Shown in pieces: positions 2,444-64,000 of a stretch of 64,000 bases of DNA. Both the position numbers and the translations under genes were made by a program. Position 1 is the first letter of the stretch. Every line of letters begins with the position of its first letter. The stretch is from a virus (lineage: Duplodnaviria; Caudoviricetes). The notes beneath the pieces were generated by a model, which did no database searches, was not told the origin of the DNA, and worked only from the letters and a program-made list of their open reading frames with translations. The stretch covers positions 32,001 to 96,000 of the IMG/VR virus record IMGVR_UViG_3300046615_000261. The stretch is one strand, 5' to 3'.

Positions 2444-3646
2444 ATGACATCTCCAGTCGATACCTCAGTTAAGTATTTCAGCTCGAATATGCCGAACGCT
2501 CCAGTGCTGAGCGGCACTGCCGGCGCGCTGATTGCATTGCTGGACGCTTGTCTCAAGGACGGCTTCAACTCGATTACACCGACATCGATTGTGGTCGCTG
2601 GAGGTATCGCTACTTTGAGCTGGGCCTCTGGTACGTTCGCGGCACTGCCAGACTCGGTAGTGCTGATTGCTGGCGTGACCGACAAGACCGGCCTGAACGG
2701 TGAGCAGAAAGTGCTCACCAAGAGCGCGCTGTCAATCACGTTCGCAACTGCTGAGACTGCTGGCACTGCAACGCTCTCCGCTGCCACGGTGAAGATCGCG
2801 CCGCTTGGATGGCTGAAGCCTCAATCAGGTACCAACCTTGCAGCGTACCAATCAAGTGATTCACTGTCTACCAAGATGCTACTGCGTGTTGATGACACCG
2901 GAACCACGATGGCCCGCGTTGTCGGATACGAGTCCATGACCGATGTGAACACTGGAGTGAACCCATTCCCTTCAGCGGCTCAGATGTCAGGTGGCGGTTA
3001 TTGGTCGAAGAGCGTGAATGCGAGCGCCGCTACCGTGAATTGGTCCTTGCATGGCGATGGAAGAATCTTCTATCTTAACGTTCAGCCAGGATCGTCGAAC
3101 GCTTTGGTGAATCAAATTTGTTCAGGCAAGGTCTTTGGAGACGTGATTCCGACCAAGCCGGGCGGAGACCCTTATGCCTGCTGCCTGAACTACGCCCAGA
3201 CCGCAACGATTGGTAACCAGACCGATGGCGCGTTCGGCGCGTCTGGCGACTTCAAGTTCGCCATGCCTCGCGATTTCACAGGATTGGGGTCTTCAGTGAT
3301 GTACGGCGCGTGGACTTTGACTGGAAATGGCGGAGTTTCAGGTCTAGCGAACGCCCTTGGCTCGTTCCCTTCCCCAATTGACGGCGGCCTTTGGCTGTGC
3401 AAGAAGTTCCTGTACACTTCTATTCTCAGTTCCCCTCGTGCCATTTTCCCAGGCCTCCTGAACGTCGTCCAGTCTGGCGTTTGGAATTCCTTCAAGCAAG
3501 GAGACTCAGTGCCGGGGTCTGGGATTTACGCGGGTAAGAACCTGATGGCGGCAACGACATCTGACAACTCGACGGCGTTCACCACAGCTTCTACTGCAGC
3601 TAACACTGGCATCATCTTTTTCGACGTCACAGGCCCTTGGAGATAA
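2444..3646 (+). CDS. Tail fibre / virion structural protein
   Basis: N-terminus MTSPVDTSVKYF...LSGTAGALIALLDACLKDGF is typical of a proteobacterial phage tail-fibre family; Gly/Ser/Thr-rich. Confidence 0.7.
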   Translation: MTSPVDTSVKYFSSNMPNAPVLSGTAGALIALLDACLKDGFNSITPTSIVVAGGIATLSWASGTFAALPDSVVLIAGVTDKTGLNGEQKVLTKSALSITFATAETAGTATLSAATVKIAPLGWLKPQSGTNLAAYQSSDSLSTKMLLRVDDTGTTMARVVGYESMTDVNTGVNPFPSAAQMSGGGYWSKSVNASAATVNWSLHGDGRIFYLNVQPGSSNALVNQICSGKVFGDVIPTKPGGDPYACCLNYAQTATIGNQTDGAFGASGDFKFAMPRDFTGLGSSVMYGAWTLTGNGGVSGLANALGSFPSPIDGGLWLCKKFLYTSILSSPRAIFPGLLNVVQSGVWNSFKQGDSVPGSGIYAGKNLMAATTSDNSTAFTTASTAANTGIIFFDVTGPWR

Positions 3647-3647
3647 G

Positions 3648-4274
3648 TTGATCCACAGTCCGTTCCATACCGTTGAGAACTTCATCTCTCCACTGCAATG
3701 TGAAATCATTGCAGATCGCCTGAAGCTGAATGTTCCAAGCTACGCTGAAGATGGTCAGCCTCTGAAGTACGAATGCCGTGTTCCCGTTGAACTGGCAGGA
3801 AATATCGCATCAGAGCTGGACGCCCTGTCACCGCTGCTTGAGCGACGTTATGGTGCTCAGATTTCCGCTGAACCAGCGCTGTTGTTCCAGCAGTACTGGG
3901 AGAACGCGAAAGCTCCAGCAGAACAGATCGGCTGCGAGAACTCAAAGTTCTCACGGAAGAAGTGGATCAAGACGAAGGACGTCGATCTGGTCGGATTTAT
4001 CTGGCTGAAGTCGTTCCACAACTCGGTTCCGCTCGATCCTCGCCACGAGGTCTATGGCGGCAAGCTCGAATTTCCTGGGTACAACTTCAGCCTGACGCCG
4101 GTCCGCGGCACGCTGGTAATCTTCCCAGCTACTCCGCACTTCATCACGGCCACGTCGCACGTGATGCTCGGTTCTCTTGAGCAAATCAAGCTGAACATCA
4201 AGCTCAAGGACTGGCAGTACCAGCCTGAGAGTTTTCCAGGCACGTACCAAGAGTGGTTCTTCCCTGAAGAGTAA
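3648..4274 (+). CDS. 2OG-Fe(II) oxygenase-fold protein, catalytic residues apparently lost
   Basis: YGGKLEF and P.RGTLVIFPA scaffold present; HxD, distal His and Arg appear replaced; TTG start. Confidence 0.65.
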   Translation: MIHSPFHTVENFISPLQCEIIADRLKLNVPSYAEDGQPLKYECRVPVELAGNIASELDALSPLLERRYGAQISAEPALLFQQYWENAKAPAEQIGCENSKFSRKKWIKTKDVDLVGFIWLKSFHNSVPLDPRHEVYGGKLEFPGYNFSLTPVRGTLVIFPATPHFITATSHVMLGSLEQIKLNIKLKDWQYQPESFPGTYQEWFFPEE

Positions 4275-4295
4275 TCTGTAACGGCGTTACAGATT
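4273..4295. repeat. Perfect 10-bp inverted repeat (hairpin or operator)
   Basis: AATCTGTAAC-GGC-GTTACAGATT between the oxygenase stop and the island promoter. Confidence 0.8.
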
Positions 4296-4297
4296 CG

Positions 4298-4334
4298 TTT
4301 ACACGCATTCCCAGGATGCTGTACAATTCACCAT
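4298..4334 (+). promoter_or_regulatory. Sigma70-like early island promoter
   Basis: TTTACA-18 nt-TACAAT; CAGGATGCTGTACAATTCACCAT matches 36751-36773 at 22/23 nt. Confidence 0.7.
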
Positions 4335-4347
4335 CGACACTGAAACG

Positions 4348-4674
4348 ATGATGAACATGAAAAATCCCGCCCTCGCAAATCTCACGCCGGTCAGCTCCGA
4401 ATCGCTGAGCTGCTCGATGGCGCGGAAACTGCTCCTGGGCGATATCAGCGATCTGAACGTCCGTCGCTTCGAACACATCTACAACGACCCCCGCCCGCAC
4501 GTCGGTCTTGCTCTGAAGGGCAAGGAAGGGAACGTCACGGTCTGGGCCCTCACGAAGGAACTCCGCGACGAACGCGAGAACGAGCTGATCGGTTGGGAAC
4601 TCACGCCGATTCGCGAAACCATCGAAGCTCAGCCGTCGCTCGCCGGCTGGACCCTCCGTTTGCTGAACGACTAA
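4348..4674 (+). CDS. Hypothetical protein (island 1)
   Basis: ORF directly behind the island promoter. Confidence 0.75.
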   Translation: MMNMKNPALANLTPVSSESLSCSMARKLLLGDISDLNVRRFEHIYNDPRPHVGLALKGKEGNVTVWALTKELRDERENELIGWELTPIRETIEAQPSLAGWTLRLLND

Positions 4675-4686
4675 GAAGGAAAAATC

Positions 4687-4965
4687 ATGGCAAGCTTCAA
4701 CGACTTCCCGGCGAACTGGCGCGAAATCACGCAAGAGGTGTTCGCCAAGAGCCGGCACTTCACGTTCGCGCCGGTGAACATCGAGTTCCGGCAGATGATC
4801 GATCGGAATGATCGCTCCAAGCCGCCGCTGAATGCCAGGCTCGAGTGGCAAGCCGACGGCACCGGGTACTCGATCGTGAACGACTACTGGGCCGGGACCG
4901 TGAAGCTCTTCGCGTTCGGCGAGCGTACGCCCGGTCTGGTCGAAAACTTCGATTCTTCGGACTGA
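4687..4965 (+). CDS. Hypothetical protein (island 1)
   Basis: SD AAGGA, then ATG. Confidence 0.75.
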   Translation: MASFNDFPANWREITQEVFAKSRHFTFAPVNIEFRQMIDRNDRSKPPLNARLEWQADGTGYSIVNDYWAGTVKLFAFGERTPGLVENFDSSD

Positions 4966-4967
4966 TC

Positions 4968-5273
4968 ATGTCGATCTCCATCGTCGCCGGCGGCGACCTG
5001 TACAAGCGGCTCCAGCAGGAGATGCTGATCAACGTTCCGCGCCAGACCACCCTGACCGGGTTTCAAGAGCGGATTGCTGACCGCGGCTTTCGCGGCGCTG
5101 AGCTGATCGAAGGTGCGCATGGTTGGTGCCTTCGGTACGACTCTGGTCTGCAGGGTTTCGACATCATCAAGGTCGACGGTCTTCCGGGCACGTTCTTCAC
5201 GGCATGCAAGAAGGCCACGGCCTGGGTCGCCGAAGACCCACTTCATCGGTACGCTTTTGTGAGGACAGTATGA
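4968..5273 (+). CDS. Hypothetical protein (island 1)
   Basis: Start moved to ATG 4968 (MSISIVAGG), just after the upstream TGA. Confidence 0.7.
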   Translation: MSISIVAGGDLYKRLQQEMLINVPRQTTLTGFQERIADRGFRGAELIEGAHGWCLRYDSGLQGFDIIKVDGLPGTFFTACKKATAWVAEDPLHRYAFVRTV

Positions 5274-5584
5274 GAGCACATCTCTGTTTCATCGGTGGCG
5301 GCGATCGCATCGAACGGTACTGCCCGGGCTGCATCGACGAAAGGCGAGCCATGAAAATGAACATCGTGTACTGCCATGTCGGGTACGACCAAGCGTCGGC
5401 CCACTCCAGAATCAAGCCGAACATGCCTGACAACATGAGGCTCACGTTCAATGACGCTGGCGTGCTGATCCGCGCCGATGTCCTGTCGCCGATCGAGCGG
5501 CGGGTGAAAGCCATGCGCGCGGCCGATGTGGAACAATCCGATCGCGAATACATTCTGTCTACTCAACGTAAGGGGAAAATCTGA
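5270..5584 (+). CDS. Hypothetical protein (island 1)
   Basis: SD GAGGA and ATGA overlap at 5270 (MRAHLCF...). Confidence 0.65.
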   Translation: MRAHLCFIGGGDRIERYCPGCIDERRAMKMNIVYCHVGYDQASAHSRIKPNMPDNMRLTFNDAGVLIRADVLSPIERRVKAMRAADVEQSDREYILSTQRKGKI

Positions 5585-5823
5585 TGTGGGAAAACCGTCG
5601 CAATGCTGGCTCGGCGAGCTGGACCGGAGTTGACAAGAAGAAGGTCGACGCGGCCAAGAAGAAGGAATGGCTCCAGAAGCTGAACCAAGGCAAGCGCGGC
5701 CAGAAGGGGTTCACGCTGATCGAGCTCATGATCGTGCTCGCGATGGTCACGATCGTTCTCGCCATGGTCGGCCCCGGCATGTGGGGTTACCTTGGTGAAC
5801 TTTTCGCGGTCGTGTCGAAATGA
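5584..5823 (+). CDS. Truncated type IV prepilin-like peptide
   Basis: QKG|FTLIELMIVLAMVTIVLAMVGP class III signal with E5, P22 and Y27; stop after 37 mature residues. Confidence 0.75.
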   Translation: MWENRRNAGSASWTGVDKKKVDAAKKKEWLQKLNQGKRGQKGFTLIELMIVLAMVTIVLAMVGPGMWGYLGELFAVVSK

Positions 5824-6071
5824 GCGACGCAATGAATGAGCTGTTCGCAGCGACTGAAAAGCGGCGCGCTGAAATCCAACTCGAGCACATCGAGAAGATG
5901 ATCGAGATGTCAAATCAGATCGCCAAAGATCTGCTGAACGGAATCGGCTTTGAGGAGCGGCCGAAGCTCAGCGATCATAAGATGCAGCTCATCTTGCTGA
6001 ACAACATGGCGAACAAGCTTCAGCGCCGTGTGATCATGATGCTGGCTGCGGCCGGTCAAGACGGCACGTAA
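5820..6071 (+). CDS. Hypothetical helical protein (island 1)
   Basis: ATGA coupling to the pilin-like gene. Confidence 0.7.
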   Translation: MSDAMNELFAATEKRRAEIQLEHIEKMIEMSNQIAKDLLNGIGFEERPKLSDHKMQLILLNNMANKLQRRVIMMLAAAGQDGT

Positions 6072-8470
6072 TCCTGCCAAGACCCGATGTTCTGACTTGG
6101 TCCTACCCAGTGGTAGACCTTGTTCAGAACGCCTAGATCGCCAGTGTCGAGCTCGGCGTAATTCATGTGAATCAAGACTCGCTTCGGTCCAGTGTTCAGG
6201 ACTGCAGGCGAGATTGGCAGGCCATCGCCTCCCGTGAGAGTCATTGGCTCGAACGCTGACAGAAGCTTCTCGTCTCCCTTGTCGTCTTGCGAGTCCTCGT
6301 TCTTTTTGGACGAGGACGGTCCGCTTCCGGAATCCCCACCAGCACTTGTTCCAACAATCGCGCCTGGAGTACCTTCAGGTCGATCTGGCATGTACACCCA
6401 CGTGTCGCCATTCAGGGAGGCCCGGAGCTCTCCAATGTCCCAGCCTGTTGTACTACTTGTACTGCCAGAGCCGGTGTCTCCGGTGTCGCCTGAAGAGCCC
6501 GAGTCGCCTCCTGCCGAGGTGTCTCCACCAGCAGAAGTATCTTCTGGCGTGATCGTCTTCAGGACGAGATCGTATGTGCGAACCCGAGGGCGAATGTACA
6601 GGACCCCGTTCGTCGGCCACACGACGGACCCGAGCTTGAACGAGACTGCAGGGTTGCTGAACAATTTGCCTGGGGTGACAGTTCCGAGATCCTTCACAAG
6701 GGTCCCGACGTCGTCGGCTATTTGCCAACTAATGCCGTATAAACTCGCCCCTAACGAGCCATTCGGCGCCTTTTGAATTCTGATCTCTTGGTCCCAGTCG
6801 AGTTTCAAGCTAAGCAGATCAATGTCGGGGATCGACATATTCTGCACGCTCAATGACTCGTCTGGAGCGAGAGCTGTGTGCTGGATTACGCAGAGACCTT
6901 CACTGAGATCGTCGTTCTCGACGACACTGATCCTAATCAAATTGGCTGCTTGACCACGTTCAACTGATCTAAAATAGGTACCACCTGCCCACAGTCGCGC
7001 GCGGGTGCTTGATGACGTCTTCAGGAACACTGGCCCCTGCATCGTCGGCTTGAACTCGCCCTTAACCGGCGCTTGTTGCGCAGCAATCTTAACGACATCC
7101 AGTGTCGCGGGTCTGCCAGTGATCTTGAACGTGCCAGCCGTCGCCCGTACAATCGGAGCAATCTTAGCGGTCGATGGGTAACCAGTGACAGTGAACGCGC
7201 CTGTTCCAAGGAACATTGGCCGATCAATGAGCCGCCAGACCGTGAAGTTCGCGCCATTGCTGCCGATCGTGAACGCACCAATACTTGGTGAGAGCTTGTA
7301 CGAGAGCTTGCTCTCAATCGACGTGCTGCCGATAATGAAGTTCGCCGTTCCAGCATTGATCTTCCGCTGGAACAGGTACTTGGTGTCGCGACCCTGAACG
7401 GCGTACGCACCTGTCGCTCCAGCTGGAACGTGGTTGTACACCCAGCGCATGCTTGGCGCACTGATTGTGAACGTACCCGCCAAGAACCCAGCGCCAGTAG
7501 ACGAAATTAGCGCTGTAGATCCGTCAATCGAGAATGCGCCAACGGCTGGCGACCACTGATGTCCGCGCCAGATCTTTGCCGAGCGGGTCCCAATGCTGAA
7601 CGAACCTGTTCCTGCTCGAATCGCGCGACCAAGCGATGTCGTGGAAAGAACACCGGTGATGTTGAACGCAGCGGGATCAACTCGCCAGGCGGTGTTGTTC
7701 TTCGTGAACGCAGCTGGAGGCGTATCAATCGTGAATGCCTGCGGAACAGGCACGTTGATACGACGGGATCTAATGTAAGACGCCGCTGGGTAATCAATCG
7801 TGAACGTGCTGGTCGATGTGAACCACTTACGTCCAGTGAACTTGAACAGGACATCGCGACCAGTGATCGTGTACGCACCAGTCGTCTCACCCCATGCTCG
7901 CGTTCTTGCAATTCGGCCATTTGATCCAACGACCGTGAATGACGATGGTGGCAGGAACCACTCAAGATCTGCGCGTTGGAAGAACGCCAGATAGCTGTTG
8001 TCGATCGTAAAGACGCCTGGCTGCGTTCTAAGCTTGTGCGCTACCGACGGCTGAACAGTTGCCCCAGTGTACGTGAATACGCCAGGTGATACAGGGAACT
8101 TATGGGCGAACGTGATTTTGGCTGGGAAGCCAACTACGTTGAACGCGCCAGTCGGCGCTGGCATTGTGCGCGTGAGCGATTGCCGTGCCGAATTTCCAGA
8201 GTAATTGAACGTGCCTGGTGCTAGCGACCAGAACACCGATGTCGAAATCGCCGCCGACGACGGCGTGATCGAGAACGCCCCTGGCGTTGCATCGAAGGAA
8301 TATGAGTTCGCGGTTCCAACAGAACCGAATAGCAGGGTAACCGAGGACGCCCCTGCAGTAGGAACGCCCGCGAACGTCAGGTGGGCCGCAGACGACATCG
8401 GCGTCAACGACCCAGAGACGGTACTTACGGCGAAAGAGCTAGGTGTACAACTGAGGAGATAGTCAGCCAC
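6056..8470 (-). CDS. Repetitive fibre-like virion protein (804 aa)
   Basis: About 19 G-x-F-x-I-x-G-type repeats; GTG start; in a late operon. Confidence 0.65.
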   Translation of the reverse strand: MADYLLSCTPSSFAVSTVSGSLTPMSSAAHLTFAGVPTAGASSVTLLFGSVGTANSYSFDATPGAFSITPSSAAISTSVFWSLAPGTFNYSGNSARQSLTRTMPAPTGAFNVVGFPAKITFAHKFPVSPGVFTYTGATVQPSVAHKLRTQPGVFTIDNSYLAFFQRADLEWFLPPSSFTVVGSNGRIARTRAWGETTGAYTITGRDVLFKFTGRKWFTSTSTFTIDYPAASYIRSRRINVPVPQAFTIDTPPAAFTKNNTAWRVDPAAFNITGVLSTTSLGRAIRAGTGSFSIGTRSAKIWRGHQWSPAVGAFSIDGSTALISSTGAGFLAGTFTISAPSMRWVYNHVPAGATGAYAVQGRDTKYLFQRKINAGTANFIIGSTSIESKLSYKLSPSIGAFTIGSNGANFTVWRLIDRPMFLGTGAFTVTGYPSTAKIAPIVRATAGTFKITGRPATLDVVKIAAQQAPVKGEFKPTMQGPVFLKTSSSTRARLWAGGTYFRSVERGQAANLIRISVVENDDLSEGLCVIQHTALAPDESLSVQNMSIPDIDLLSLKLDWDQEIRIQKAPNGSLGASLYGISWQIADDVGTLVKDLGTVTPGKLFSNPAVSFKLGSVVWPTNGVLYIRPRVRTYDLVLKTITPEDTSAGGDTSAGGDSGSSGDTGDTGSGSTSSTTGWDIGELRASLNGDTWVYMPDRPEGTPGAIVGTSAGGDSGSGPSSSKKNEDSQDDKGDEKLLSAFEPMTLTGGDGLPISPAVLNTGPKRVLIHMNYAELDTGDLGVLNKVYHWVGPSQNIGSWQDYVPS

Positions 8471-8491: not shown

Positions 8492-8935
8492 TTACGTCAG
8501 CGTCAGAATCGTACCTGGCGTAGCCGAGTTGAACTGAATCGTGACCGTTTCCGTATCGCCCAGCGTAATGCTGGTACCGTAGTCGTACCAGCCAACAACA
8601 GCGTCGGCTGGCGACGTTGCGGTGTCATTGTACAGGACAGCGTACCGGAATGGACCGATCGAACCACCAGTTGCGGTGAACACAACCTGCGTACCGAGCA
8701 CCGAGGTAACGCCCGAAGAGACGCTCAGTGTGATCGTTGTTGCCGAACCACCAGTTGGGTAACCGACGGCCGAAGTTGGCGGCGCGTGTGCGCTGACCAG
8801 GTCAAGCGTTGTTTGCGAAGCAATAGGCGCAACGTTCGTCAGGCAGACCTTGTAAACGTCGGTAGCAAAGTGATGCACACCCTTGATGACCTGCTGCGAG
8901 AAGTCATTGAACTTGTTGAATGCTGAAACAGCCAT
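8492..8935 (-). CDS. Virion structural protein (fibre-associated)
   Basis: D.YKVCL and TLSVSSG..VVFTATGGSIGPFRYAVLY pattern of small fibre-associated proteins; late box upstream. Confidence 0.65.
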   Translation of the reverse strand: MAVSAFNKFNDFSQQVIKGVHHFATDVYKVCLTNVAPIASQTTLDLVSAHAPPTSAVGYPTGGSATTITLSVSSGVTSVLGTQVVFTATGGSIGPFRYAVLYNDTATSPADAVVGWYDYGTSITLGDTETVTIQFNSATPGTILTLT

Positions 8936-28039: not shown

Positions 28040-28079
28040 GTTACAGATTGGAGTTCGGGATGTAGTACAATTCATCCAT
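28040..28079 (+). promoter_or_regulatory. Early island promoter (island 2)
   Basis: GGATGTAGTACAATTCATCCAT resembles 4312 and 36751; GTTACAGATT at 28040 is identical to 4286-4295. Confidence 0.6.
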
Positions 28080-36750: not shown

Positions 36751-36773
36751 CAGGATGCTGTATAATTCACCAT
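36751..36773 (+). promoter_or_regulatory. Early island promoter (island 3)
   Basis: CAGGATGCTGTATAATTCACCAT with consensus TATAAT; 22/23 identical to 4312-4334. Confidence 0.7.
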
Positions 36774-63855: not shown

Positions 63856-64000
63856 ATGCAGCTGTTGAAAGAATACCTCGATCCAAGCACCACCAATCTG
63901 ACCGAAATGAAGAAGGTTGGCGGCGATCTCTACCTGTCTGGCATCATGATGCAAGCAGCACTGAAGAACGGCAATGGCCGCGTCTATCCAGTGAATGAAA
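63856..64000 (+). CDS. gp21: Prohead protease, T4 gp21-like (5' part, runs off the window)
   Basis: Read directly: MQLLKEYL...LYLSGIMMQAALKNGNGRVYP; SD AAGGAG. Confidence 0.9.
   Translation, partial: MQLLKEYLDPSTTNLTEMKKVGGDLYLSGIMMQAALKNGNGRVYPVNE

What the first reader, a model, noticed from the sequence alone, without database searches (positions are those of the whole stretch)
5584..5823. Phage-encoded headless type IV pilin mimic in an early island
Seen: a basic 42-aa leader ending QKG, then FTLIELMIVLAMVTIVLAMVGPGMWGY. This has the G-1/F+1 cleavage site, E5, P22 and Y27 of type IVa pilins, but stops after 37 mature residues with no globular head. Known: prepilin peptidase (PilD) cleaves and methylates such sequences for T4P/T2SS assembly, and many phages use T4P as receptor. 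Inference: a dominant-negative decoy that poisons pilus assembly or titrates PilD, giving superinfection exclusion or shutting off twitching or secretion.
Basis: partly seen in the sequence, partly recalled or inferred. Interest (0 to 1): 0.82.

Follow-up and report, generated by a model that had tools for sequence, protein, structure and literature searches.

The report
Headless mini-prepilin of a jumbo phage
A giant soil phage carries a real 79-codon gene that encodes only the signal and membrane stalk of a bacterial pilus subunit, behind an unusually long basic leader; it probably jams or fools the host's pilus or secretion machinery, an idea already in print for similar phage "pilin stubs" and still untested.

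Summary
ORF 5584-5823 (+) encodes a 42-aa basic leader ending QKG, then 37 residues with F1, E5, P22 and Y27 and no head. It passes Pfam N_methyl (37.1 bits, cut-off 21.2) and TIGR02532 (31.3, cut-off 16.3). Its codon usage is among the best of the phage's small genes.

The window is part of a 234.5-kb jumbo-phage contig from rhizosphere metagenomes. The gene is fifth of six tightly coupled small ORFan genes. They follow a sigma-70-like promoter that recurs at least 10 times in the contig, elsewhere ahead of DNA-ligase, RNA-ligase and kinase-like genes. Two relatives keep the flanking genes but lack the island. "Early accessory island" is therefore supported by inference.

The function is untested, and the protein has no full-length homologue among 1.84 billion representatives. 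Headless pilin stubs are not new: Delftia phage PhiW-14 gp120 and Aeromonas phage PX29 gp038 are examples. Sztanko et al. (Cell Rep 2026) proposed that truncated phage PilA blocks or alters pili. This scan also noted such stubs in other phages. New here are the 42-aa leader and the very short stalk. The helix is no closer to type IVa pilins than to GspG/ComGC pseudopilins. Verdict: real gene, a new variant of a known but uncharacterised kind.

The parts
4273..4295 (+). Perfect 10-bp inverted repeat (AATCTGTAAC-GGC-GTTACAGATT) whose 5' arm overlaps the last two bases of the TAA stop (4272-4274) of the 208-aa gene. It marks the left boundary of the island, and its 3' arm is the upstream GTTACAGATT element of the promoter family.
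   Evidence: Sequence. RNA fold -12.1 kcal/mol, z -2.6.
4298..4327 (+). Sigma-70-like promoter TTTACA-18 nt-TACAAT. It is a member of a conserved ~60-nt promoter family with at least 10 copies in the contig, all on the + strand. It is probably an early promoter.
   Evidence: The core GGATGnnGTACAATTCAYC occurs 3 times in the window against 0 expected by chance. Other copies precede PNK-like, DNA-ligase and RNA-ligase genes.
4348..4674 (+). Island gene 1 (108 aa, ORFan). Its start lies about 20 nt after the -10 element, as in the other promoter copies.
   Evidence: No Pfam or PHROG hit.
4687..4965 (+). Island gene 2 (92 aa, ORFan).
   Evidence: No family hit.
4968..5273 (+). Island gene 3 (101 aa, ORFan).
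5270..5584 (+). Island gene 4 (104 aa by the public gene call; 77 aa from 5351 by my caller). Its stop overlaps the start of the mini-prepilin gene (TGATG).
5584..5709 (+). Leader of the mini-prepilin: 42 aa, hydrophilic, net charge +8. A helix is predicted at residues 18-38. It ends in G42, the predicted prepilin-peptidase cleavage site.
   Evidence: In-frame coding score +23.3 bits.
5710..5823 (+). Mature stalk plus stop codon: 37 aa (F1..K37). It has E5, a hydrophobic membrane helix at residues 1-20, a G21-P22-G23 kink and a W25-G26-Y27 aromatic cluster. There is no head domain.
5820..6071 (+). Island gene 6 (83 aa, predicted helical hairpin, no signal peptide). Its start overlaps the mini-prepilin stop (ATGA). 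Its 3' end overlaps the convergent 804-aa gene by 16 nt.
2444..3646 (+). Context: 400-aa homologue of distal tail-tip 'tail assembly' proteins (AXL1 gp46, Sano gp45, DLP4) of phages that bind type IV pili. Like the island, it is absent from the two relatives.
   Evidence: PMC9206674.

Best explanation
This is a real accessory gene of a virulent-type jumbo phage from the rhizosphere. It is probably transcribed early by host RNA polymerase.

[quoted passage not shown] The host prepilin peptidase (PilD/GspO) recognises the G42|F43 site. This leaves a 37-residue stub that is essentially the alpha1-N helix of a pilin or pseudopilin, with F1, E5 and P22 but no globular head. The stub behaves as a pilin mimic inside the membrane. 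It docks where real subunits dock: on the assembly platform (PilC or GspF with its partners) or at the base of the nascent filament through E5. With no head it cannot build a normal fibre, so extension of the type IV pilus, or of the T2SS pseudopilus, is blocked or corrupted. For the phage, the gain would be fast exclusion of pilus-dependent competitors and siblings from a cell it already owns.

Shown here: the gene, its motif, its coding signal, its island and its promoter context.

Inferred: the early timing, PilD cleavage, the target machine and the benefit to the phage.

My split within this reading: platform or filament blockade about 0.3; the remaining 0.2 of the 0.5 is interference with an unresolved target.
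For: - The motif is well above the curated cut-offs and is unique in the contig.
- Strong in-frame codon bias over both leader and stalk, plus translational coupling on both sides.
- The island sits behind a conserved sigma-70-like promoter that elsewhere heads PNK-like, DNA-ligase and RNA-ligase genes.
- The island is absent from two syntenic relatives. One of them carries a different small gene in the same slot behind a degenerate copy of the promoter. This is typical of host-takeover or exclusion cargo.
- No phage PilD or T2SS-E ATPase in the 234.5 kb held, so the motif only makes sense with host machinery.
- No integrase in the same 234.5 kb.
- Stubs recur in large virulent phages, often in early regions: PhiW-14 gp120 (mature 38 aa), PX29 gp038 (mature 26 aa, between nrdB and nrdD), Vibrio phage 1.081.O gene 058 beside thymidylate synthase, and a 37-aa ORF in the 359-kb contig of L033 that shares flanking genes with this phage.
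- Precedents: P-FimU is incorporated into pili and blocks phages, and truncated P-PilA were proposed to incorporate or inhibit (PMC12952977). The 30-aa inner-membrane protein PfsE blocks T4P by binding PilC through a YAWGW cluster (PMC8764522); the stub has MWGY at the equivalent membrane edge.
- The phage carries a homologue of a tail-tip protein shared by T4P-binding phages.
Against: - There are no functional data and the host is unknown.
- The protein is an ORFan. Only itself was found among 5.8 billion clusters and 1.84 billion representatives, and all eight contigs carrying it are the same phage at 99.99-100% DNA identity. There is therefore no evolutionary evidence of selection.
- A 42-aa leader is longer than that of any pilin-like ORF I examined. 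The others have 5-14 aa, or an internal Met that gives a short leader. It might prevent PilD cleavage.
- The post-P22 segment is hydrophobic, unlike a pilin alpha1-C.
- Many stub-bearing phages (T4-like phages of Aeromonas, Vibrio and cyanobacteria) are not known to me to use pili, so self-exclusion through T4P cannot be general.
- The tail-protein link is loose. Only 2 of 10 records with homologues carry any pilin gene, and the AXL1 authors' candidate receptor binder is gp44, not gp46.
Confidence: 0.5

Rival explanations
1. Pilin-pool signal mimic. The stub does not touch the assembly machine. Instead it imitates the inner-membrane reservoir of mature pilin that host sensor kinases read (PilS in Pseudomonas-type systems, PleC in Caulobacter). 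This switches off pilin transcription or triggers pilus loss and other downstream programmes.
For: In Caulobacter, PilA truncated to 17, 25 or 37 mature residues still signals through PleC. A synthetic 17-aa peptide lowers susceptibility to the pilus phage PhiCbK by 77% (PMC7196804). [quoted passage not shown] The stub keeps the conserved alpha1-N with E5 and P22.
Against: A transcriptional route is slow for a lytic phage that probably shuts down host transcription anyway. The stub's helix is only 36-55% identical to any natural pilin helix found. The host and its sensors are unknown. The Kilmury paper itself was not held.
Confidence: 0.12
2. Prepilin-peptidase sink. The long, highly basic leader makes the protein a tight-binding but slowly cleaved or uncleavable substrate that occupies PilD/GspO. 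All host pilins and pseudopilins (T4P, T2SS, competence) then stay unprocessed.
For: It explains the one feature that sets this protein apart, the 42-aa, net +8 leader with no alternative start. The G-1/F+1/E+5 recognition elements are intact. PilD is an enzyme, so it is easier to titrate than the abundant major pilin (inference).
Against: No evidence that leader length slows cleavage. By my recollection of Strom and Lory's mutagenesis, PilD mainly needs G-1 and tolerates other changes in the leader. Other phage stubs have ordinary 5-6-aa leaders, so this cannot be the general mode of the class.
Confidence: 0.1
3. A small inner-membrane protein whose job is unrelated to type IV filaments. Examples would be a block to DNA injection by superinfecting phages (T4 Imm-like), a lysis-timing factor, or a partner of other island proteins. 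The pilin-type signal would serve only as a membrane-insertion and maturation device, or be left over from the captured gene.
For: The protein is essentially a single-pass N-in membrane helix with a basic cytoplasmic tail. Its neighbours are ORFans with no link to pili. Stubs occur in phages not known to use pili.
Against: A generic anchor has no need to keep G-1, F1, E5 and P22 well enough to score 16 bits above the Pfam cut-off. The charged E5 inside a membrane helix is costly unless it is used. No lysis genes are adjacent; the nearby M23/GH108 protein is part of the baseplate-spike block with a PAAR-like gene.
Confidence: 0.2
4. A non-functional or decaying fragment: a captured 5' piece of a host pilin or pseudopilin gene, or an ORF that is not expressed.
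For: It is an ORFan with no conservation data. No RNA data were available.
Against: Codon usage matches the phage's own genes better than most small genes do, in one frame only and over the leader too. It has a good Shine-Dalgarno sequence and start/stop overlaps on both sides. The downstream gene is in another frame and shows no pilin similarity, so this is not a frameshifted full-length pilin.
Confidence: 0.08

Closest known systems
Truncated phage PilA-like proteins (P-PilA, N-terminal ~60 residues) in six virulent Pseudomonas phages (Sztanko et al., Cell Rep 2026, PMC12952977)
   Same: They are encoded by non-temperate phages and consist only of the conserved N-terminal pilin helix with no head. 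They were proposed to incorporate into T4P or inhibit assembly and so exclude superinfecting phages. They are also untested.
   Different: The mature part here is 37 residues, not about 60. The leader is 42 aa. The host is unknown and the phage is a rhizosphere jumbo phage. My tblastn of the phage collection listed no Pseudomonas phage record at E<=1. I could not obtain those six sequences to compare them directly.
Delftia phage PhiW-14 gp120 (44 aa) and Aeromonas phage PX29 gp038 (31 aa)
   Same: These are cultured large myoviruses with headless stubs. PhiW-14 gp120 has a 38-aa mature part that starts with the identical FTLIELMIVLA. The PX29 gene is annotated 'similar to N-terminal part of fimbrial protein' and lies among early nucleotide-metabolism genes.
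   Different: Their leaders are 5-6 aa. Identity to the stub is 38-45% over the helix only. They carry no function beyond GenBank notes.
P-FimU of F10-like Pseudomonas prophages (same paper)
   Same: A phage-encoded mimic of a type IV pilus subunit that uses the host assembly pathway to protect the cell against pilus-binding phages. This was shown experimentally.
   Different: P-FimU is a full-length minor pilin that replaces FimU without harming pilus function, and it is expressed from prophages. The present protein has no head and cannot present a surface.
PfsE (PA0721) of filamentous phage Pf4 (PMC8764522)
   Same: A tiny (30 aa) N-in inner-membrane helix that transiently blocks T4P and excludes pilus phages. 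Its function depends on an aromatic YAWGW cluster; the stub has MWGY after its GPG kink.
   Different: PfsE has no prepilin signal and binds PilC. No homology to the stub is shown; the resemblance is at the level of architecture only.
Pilin alpha1-N as an intramembrane signal: the Caulobacter PilA 'CIP' peptide sensed by PleC (PMC7196804) and Pseudomonas PilA sensed by PilS (cited in PMC6058289)
   Same: They show that a headless pilin helix of 17-37 residues is biologically active on its own and can lower susceptibility to a pilus phage.
   Different: These are host pilins acting on the host's own sensors. No phage-encoded example is described in the papers I read.
Naturally truncated major pilins of Geobacter/Desulfuromonadales (PMC5174107; the title and abstract start were seen, and the 61-aa mature length of PilA-N is from my own knowledge)
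   Same: They are short pilins made mostly of the N-terminal helix that are still processed.
   Different: They are cellular and longer, and they work with a separate PilA-C partner. The downstream 83-aa protein here has no signal peptide and no pilin similarity.

Membership tests
Prepilin-type N-terminal cleavage/methylation domain (class III signal; Pfam PF07963, TIGR02532) | HMM score above the curated cut-off | tested here: met
   PF07963 gives 37.1 bits against 21.2. TIGR02532 gives 31.3 bits against 16.3.
Prepilin-type N-terminal cleavage/methylation domain (class III signal; Pfam PF07963, TIGR02532) | G at -1, hydrophobic residue (F) at +1, E at +5, followed by a hydrophobic helix of about 20 residues | tested here: met
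   QKG|FTLIELMIVLAMVTIVLAMV.
Prepilin-type N-terminal cleavage/methylation domain (class III signal; Pfam PF07963, TIGR02532) | Cleavage and N-methylation by a prepilin peptidase | not testable with these tools
   This needs expression in pilD+ and pilD- hosts. The phage contig has no Peptidase_A24 gene.
Type IVa major pilin (PilA) | Short leader (about 5-7 aa, by my recollection of the T4a class) | tested here: not met
   The leader is 42 aa with no alternative ATG, GTG or TTG start.
Type IVa major pilin (PilA) | Globular alpha-beta head after alpha1-C | tested here: not met
   The mature part ends at residue 37. AlphaFold2 predicts helices only. The specific PilA model NF041775 gives 20.5 bits against a cut-off of 400.
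T2SS major pseudopilin GspG (TIGR01710) | Equivalog score above the cut-off; the best natural look-alikes are GspG | tested here: not met
   19.6 bits against 88.85. The top non-self hits P0004, P0006, P0011 and P0038 match the GspG model best, but the likeness covers the helix only.
Phage truncated pilin stubs (P-PilA-type; PhiW-14 gp120, PX29 gp038) | Encoded by a tailed, non-temperate phage | tested here: met
   The contig is a jumbo-phage record with virion genes. No integrase lies in the 234.5 kb held. The contig is only 66% complete, so 'non-temperate' is provisional.
Phage truncated pilin stubs (P-PilA-type; PhiW-14 gp120, PX29 gp038) | Prepilin signal plus N-terminal helix only, too short for a head | tested here: met
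   The mature length is 37 aa, against 38 for PhiW-14 gp120 and 26 for PX29 gp038.
Phage truncated pilin stubs (P-PilA-type; PhiW-14 gp120, PX29 gp038) | Common descent with other stubs (sequence similarity beyond the universal pilin helix) | tested here: not met
   No full-length homologue was found. The PHROG hits (phrog_27437, 11263, 3433 'pilin', 13280, 10597) cover only residues ~35-68. The class looks polyphyletic.
PfsE-like T4P inhibitors | Binding to PilC and inhibition of twitching | not testable with these tools
   There is only an architectural likeness: a small N-in helix and an aromatic cluster.

The most novel reading that the evidence does not exclude
The protein may be a two-part pro-protein armed by the host's own prepilin peptidase. 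In one version, cleavage at G42 releases a 42-aa, net +8 helical peptide into the cytoplasm as a second effector, while the N-methylated 37-aa stub stays in the membrane as a pilin mimic. In the other version, the long leader turns the prepilin into a PilD inhibitor that shuts down every type IV filament system of the cell at once. Either would be a mode of phage-host interference not described for any pilin-like protein.
Probability: 0.1. Interest if true: 0.75.

Novelty: new variant of a known kind. Interest (0 to 1): 0.45.

Why it matters
Type IV pili and type II secretion are major phage receptors and colonisation and virulence machines, including in plant-associated bacteria. Phage-made subunit mimics have just been shown to work for a full-length minor pilin (P-FimU). 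Headless stubs are the minimal form of that idea. If active, they would show which part of a pilin is enough to engage PilD, the platform or the pilin sensors. They would also be a natural template for peptide inhibitors of piliation.

This example is useful as a test case for three reasons. It is extreme (37-aa stalk, 42-aa leader). It sits behind a recognisable early-type promoter. And it lies in a clearly accessory slot. On its own it adds a candidate and a variant, not a new principle.

Tried and rejected
- Megablast of 4500-7000 against 50,697 phage records gave no match.
- The search for homologous proteins and the exhaustive phmmer search found only the protein itself plus helix-only hits.
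- I first read the 804, 702 and 565-aa gene calls downstream as a length-variable fibre gene. I retracted this: the four fetched loci (L003-L006), of the eight contigs on record, are 99.99-100% identical DNA, and the differences are gene-calling or contig ends.
- The T4 late-promoter motif TATAAATA is absent from the contig.
- A search of IMG/VR for relatives of the 804-aa neighbour found none.
- The idea that the p400 tail-tip family travels with pilin genes is weak. Pilin genes occur in 2 of 5 IMG/VR records but in 0 of 5 cultured phages (ACF1, AXL1, Sano, DLP4, RS138).
- No donor pilin class could be identified; identities are 36-55% to all classes.
- ESM Atlas look-ups of the leader and of the two flanking small proteins gave only generic helices.
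- Complex prediction of the mini-prepilin with the downstream 83-aa protein gave no verdict.
- No RNA holder was listed for the island in public runs.
- Kilmury and Burrows 2016 and the supplementary table of Sztanko et al. were not held.
- Alternative start: only a CTG at codon 33, with a poorly spaced Shine-Dalgarno sequence. I rejected it as unlikely, also because the leader shows in-frame coding bias.
- Frameshifted full-length pilin: rejected, because the next ORF has no pilin similarity and scores well as a gene of its own.

Full report
**1. The observation**

ORF 5584-5823 on the + strand encodes 79 residues. They form a 42-residue leader ending KRGQKG, followed by FTLIELMIVLAMVTIVLAMVGPGMWGYLGELFAVVSK.

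The match to the prepilin cleavage/methylation domain is well above the curated thresholds. Pfam PF07963 gives 37.1 bits against 21.2. TIGR02532 gives 31.3 bits against 16.3. It is the only such match in a six-frame search of the whole contig. No specific pilin family model is met: PilA NF041775 gives 20.5 bits against 400, and GspG TIGR01710 gives 19.6 against 88.85.

**2. Is it a gene?**

I trained a codon-usage log-odds model on the 61 longest ORFs of the contig.
- The ORF scores +41.9 bits (0.53 per codon); only 5 of the 146 small genes score higher.
- The overlapping antisense ORFs score negative.
- The leader (+23.3) and the stalk (+18.7) are each positive only in frame 0.
- The ATG follows AAGGGG by 8 nt and overlaps the TGA of the upstream gene. 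The stop overlaps the ATG of the next gene.
- Between codon 1 and the cleavage site there is no other ATG, GTG or TTG, only a CTG at codon 33.

The unusually long leader is therefore real if the gene is translated at all. The other long "leaders" in my survey of viral contigs all contain an internal Met that gives a normal 5-13-residue leader. The leader has 12 K/R and 4 D/E, net +8, and no hydrophobic stretch. The stalk is 70% hydrophobic. AlphaFold2 without an alignment (pLDDT 72) gives a leader helix at 18-38, a loop over the cleavage site, and helices at 45-61 and 63-77 with a kink at the GPG.

**3. Where it sits**

The window is bases 32001-96000 of a 234,547-bp IMG/VR virus record estimated 66% complete. 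Its structural proteins resemble those of jumbo phages of Ralstonia, Xanthomonas, Stenotrophomonas and enterobacteria. The DNA occurs in rhizosphere metagenomes. No integrase, prepilin peptidase or T2SS-E-type ATPase is present in the part held.

The gene is fifth in a run of six small + strand genes (108, 92, 101, 104, 79 and 83 aa). They have overlapping or near-abutting boundaries and no family hits or paralogues. The run converges on the - strand block that holds an 804-aa protein, a PAAR-like protein and an M23/GH108 protein.

The run begins just after a perfect 10-bp hairpin (4273-4295) and a promoter, TTTACA-18-TACAAT (4298-4327). That promoter belongs to a strikingly conserved ~60-nt family. 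I found nine copies by TACAAT and a tenth with TATAAT at 36753. All are on the + strand, with 0 core matches expected by chance. Each is followed about 20-30 nt later by the start of a cluster of mostly small genes. Larger genes in those clusters include an AAA_33+HD kinase-like protein, an ATP-dependent DNA ligase and an RNA ligase. In T4, by my knowledge, the counterparts of these are early genes. A -35/-10 architecture fits host RNA polymerase.

"Early" is thus a reasonable inference, not a measurement. No RNA run was available (see Tried and rejected).

**4. Is it an island?**

Two more distant relatives keep the order p535-p98-p804 facing p208-p194-p224. They are L053 at 59-65% protein identity and L054 at about 45%. 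Both lack all six island genes, the 400-aa gene upstream and the 147-aa gene. In L053 the same slot holds a degenerate copy of the promoter and one unrelated ~90-aa ORF.

The eight contigs that carry the exact protein are the same phage. The four loci fetched from them (L003-L006) are 99.99-100% identical to the window. There is therefore no population variation to test for selection, and I withdrew an early idea that the neighbouring fibre-like gene varies in length.

**5. Relatives of the protein**

There are none beyond the pilin helix. Word-seeded search of 5.8 billion clusters and exhaustive phmmer against 1.84 billion representatives returned only the protein itself plus helix-only hits at E 8e-8 or weaker.

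The best of these hits match the GspG model best. They share G21-P22 and Y27-L28-G29-E30 with the stub. However, identity over 33 residues is 36-55% for GspG-like, ComGC-like and PilA-like helices alike. The stub cannot be assigned to type IVa pili rather than to type II secretion or competence pseudopili.

**6. Is the kind known?**

Yes, but it is uncharacterised.
- PHROGs holds short families that hit only the helix, and a "pilin" family filed under host takeover.
- Delftia phage PhiW-14 gp120 is 44 aa (mature 38, starting with the identical FTLIELMIVLA).
- Aeromonas phage PX29 gp038 is 31 aa. It is annotated as similar to the N-terminal part of a pilin and lies between nrdB and nrdD.
- Vibrio phage 1.081.O gene 058 is 82 aa and sits beside thymidylate synthase.
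- Acinetobacter phage Acibel004 gp97 is 107 aa.
- In IMG/VR, 13 of the 30 readable loci from a pattern scan encode pilin-like ORFs of 37-117 aa. Several lie on large contigs that share core genes with this phage, including a 37-aa ORF in a 359-kb contig between homologues of two genes of this genome's early-type cluster. That scan is biased by its QKGFTLIE seed.
They show that prophage FimU mimics are built into the pilus and block tip-binding phages. They also report truncated PilA of about 60 residues in six virulent Pseudomonas phages. They propose that these either incorporate without offering a phage-binding site or inhibit assembly, giving superinfection exclusion.

**7. Mechanism**

The features that are hard to explain without the type IV filament pathway are:
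- retention of G-1, F1, E5 and P22 at a score 16 bits above the Pfam cut-off;
- a charged E5 inside a membrane helix;
- the lack of any phage peptidase.

My preferred reading (0.5 overall) is a PilD-processed membrane stub that engages the assembly platform or the filament base as a subunit would. With no head, it blocks or corrupts extension.

PfsE gives a direct precedent for a tiny N-in membrane helix that blocks pili through PilC and needs an aromatic YAWGW cluster. The stub has MWGY at the periplasmic end of its helix, which is a lead and not homology.

Two alternatives have real precedent. The first is mimicry of the pilin pool read by PleC or PilS. Caulobacter PilA truncated to 17-37 residues still signals, and a 17-aa peptide cuts PhiCbK susceptibility by 77%. 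The second is titration of PilD, which would give the long basic leader a purpose.

A pili-unrelated membrane role (0.2) and a non-functional fragment (0.08) cannot be excluded.

The 400-aa gene 2 kb upstream is circumstantial support that this phage deals with pili. It is a homologue of AXL1 gp46, Sano gp45 and the DLP4 "tail assembly protein". These are distal tail-tip proteins of phages shown or reported to bind type IV pili. In one viral contig, two paralogues of it are followed directly by a full-length pilin. The link is loose, however: only 2 of 10 records with homologues have any pilin gene, and the AXL1 authors favour gp44 as the receptor binder.

**8. Verdict**

The finding is a new variant of a known but uncharacterised kind. 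It is distinguished by a 42-aa basic leader and a 37-aa stalk. It is a good candidate for the simple expression tests listed, but not a new principle.

Noticed in passing
window 4314-4332, 28058-28076, 36753-36771 (+); further copies at window-relative -15946, 104532, 134731, 140643, 145363, 181361, 198471: A conserved ~60-nt promoter family: GTTACA, about 20 nt, GGATGnnGTACAAT, TCAYC-ATCGACA..GAAACG, then a start codon. The three window copies each head a small + strand gene island embedded in the - strand structural block. It is likely the phage's early promoter class.
   Followed up: partly
window 345, 45208, 46783; also 70803 and other window-relative sites beyond the window's end at 64000: A second recurrent motif, CGTTACAATTGA, without an obvious -35 element lies upstream of many + strand genes (for example the PD-(D/E)XK-like gene at 361). 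It may be a second temporal promoter class. The T4 late motif TATAAATA is absent from the contig.
   Followed up: no
L043:4780-7569 (IMGVR_UViG_3300035180_000489): Two tandem paralogues (389 and 395 aa) of the 400-aa tail-tip protein are followed 10 nt later by a full-length 139-aa type IV pilin gene. This looks like a phage-encoded PilA next to candidate pilus-binding tail proteins, parallel to the P-PilA and P-FimU cases in print.
   Followed up: partly
L053:13393-13900 (IMGVR_UViG_3300046710_000146): A relative's equivalent slot between the 208-aa and 804-aa homologues holds a degenerate copy of the promoter and one unrelated ~90-aa ORF instead of the six-gene island. This is an exchangeable cargo slot.
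   Followed up: partly
window 2444-3646 and 8492-8935: The 400-aa tail-tip homologue (phrog_9998/9600) and the 147-aa gene (phrog_644) are also missing from both relatives. The whole region around the fibre-like 804-aa gene is a hotspot of accessory insertions.
   Followed up: partly
L033:5995-6108 (359-kb contig IMGVR_UViG_3300015606_001334): A 37-aa headless prepilin (leader 5, mature 32) lies between membrane-protein genes that are homologues (37% and 44% identity) of two genes in an early-type cluster of this genome. It is a different locus and a different sequence from the stub studied here.
   Followed up: partly
window 6056-6071: The last island gene (+) and the convergent 804-aa gene (-) overlap by 16 nt at their 3' ends, and no terminator-like site was found between them.
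   Followed up: no
L021, L025, L031, L035 (93-aa ORFs at about 5989-6270 of L021, L025 and L035, and 1379-1660 of L031): A conserved 93-aa pilin-like protein (leader 7, 86 mature residues, with Cys residues) recurs on four viral contigs. The two that were compared with this phage (L021, L025) share several core genes with it at about 26-39% identity. It appears to be a mini-pilin family with a very small head.
   Followed up: no
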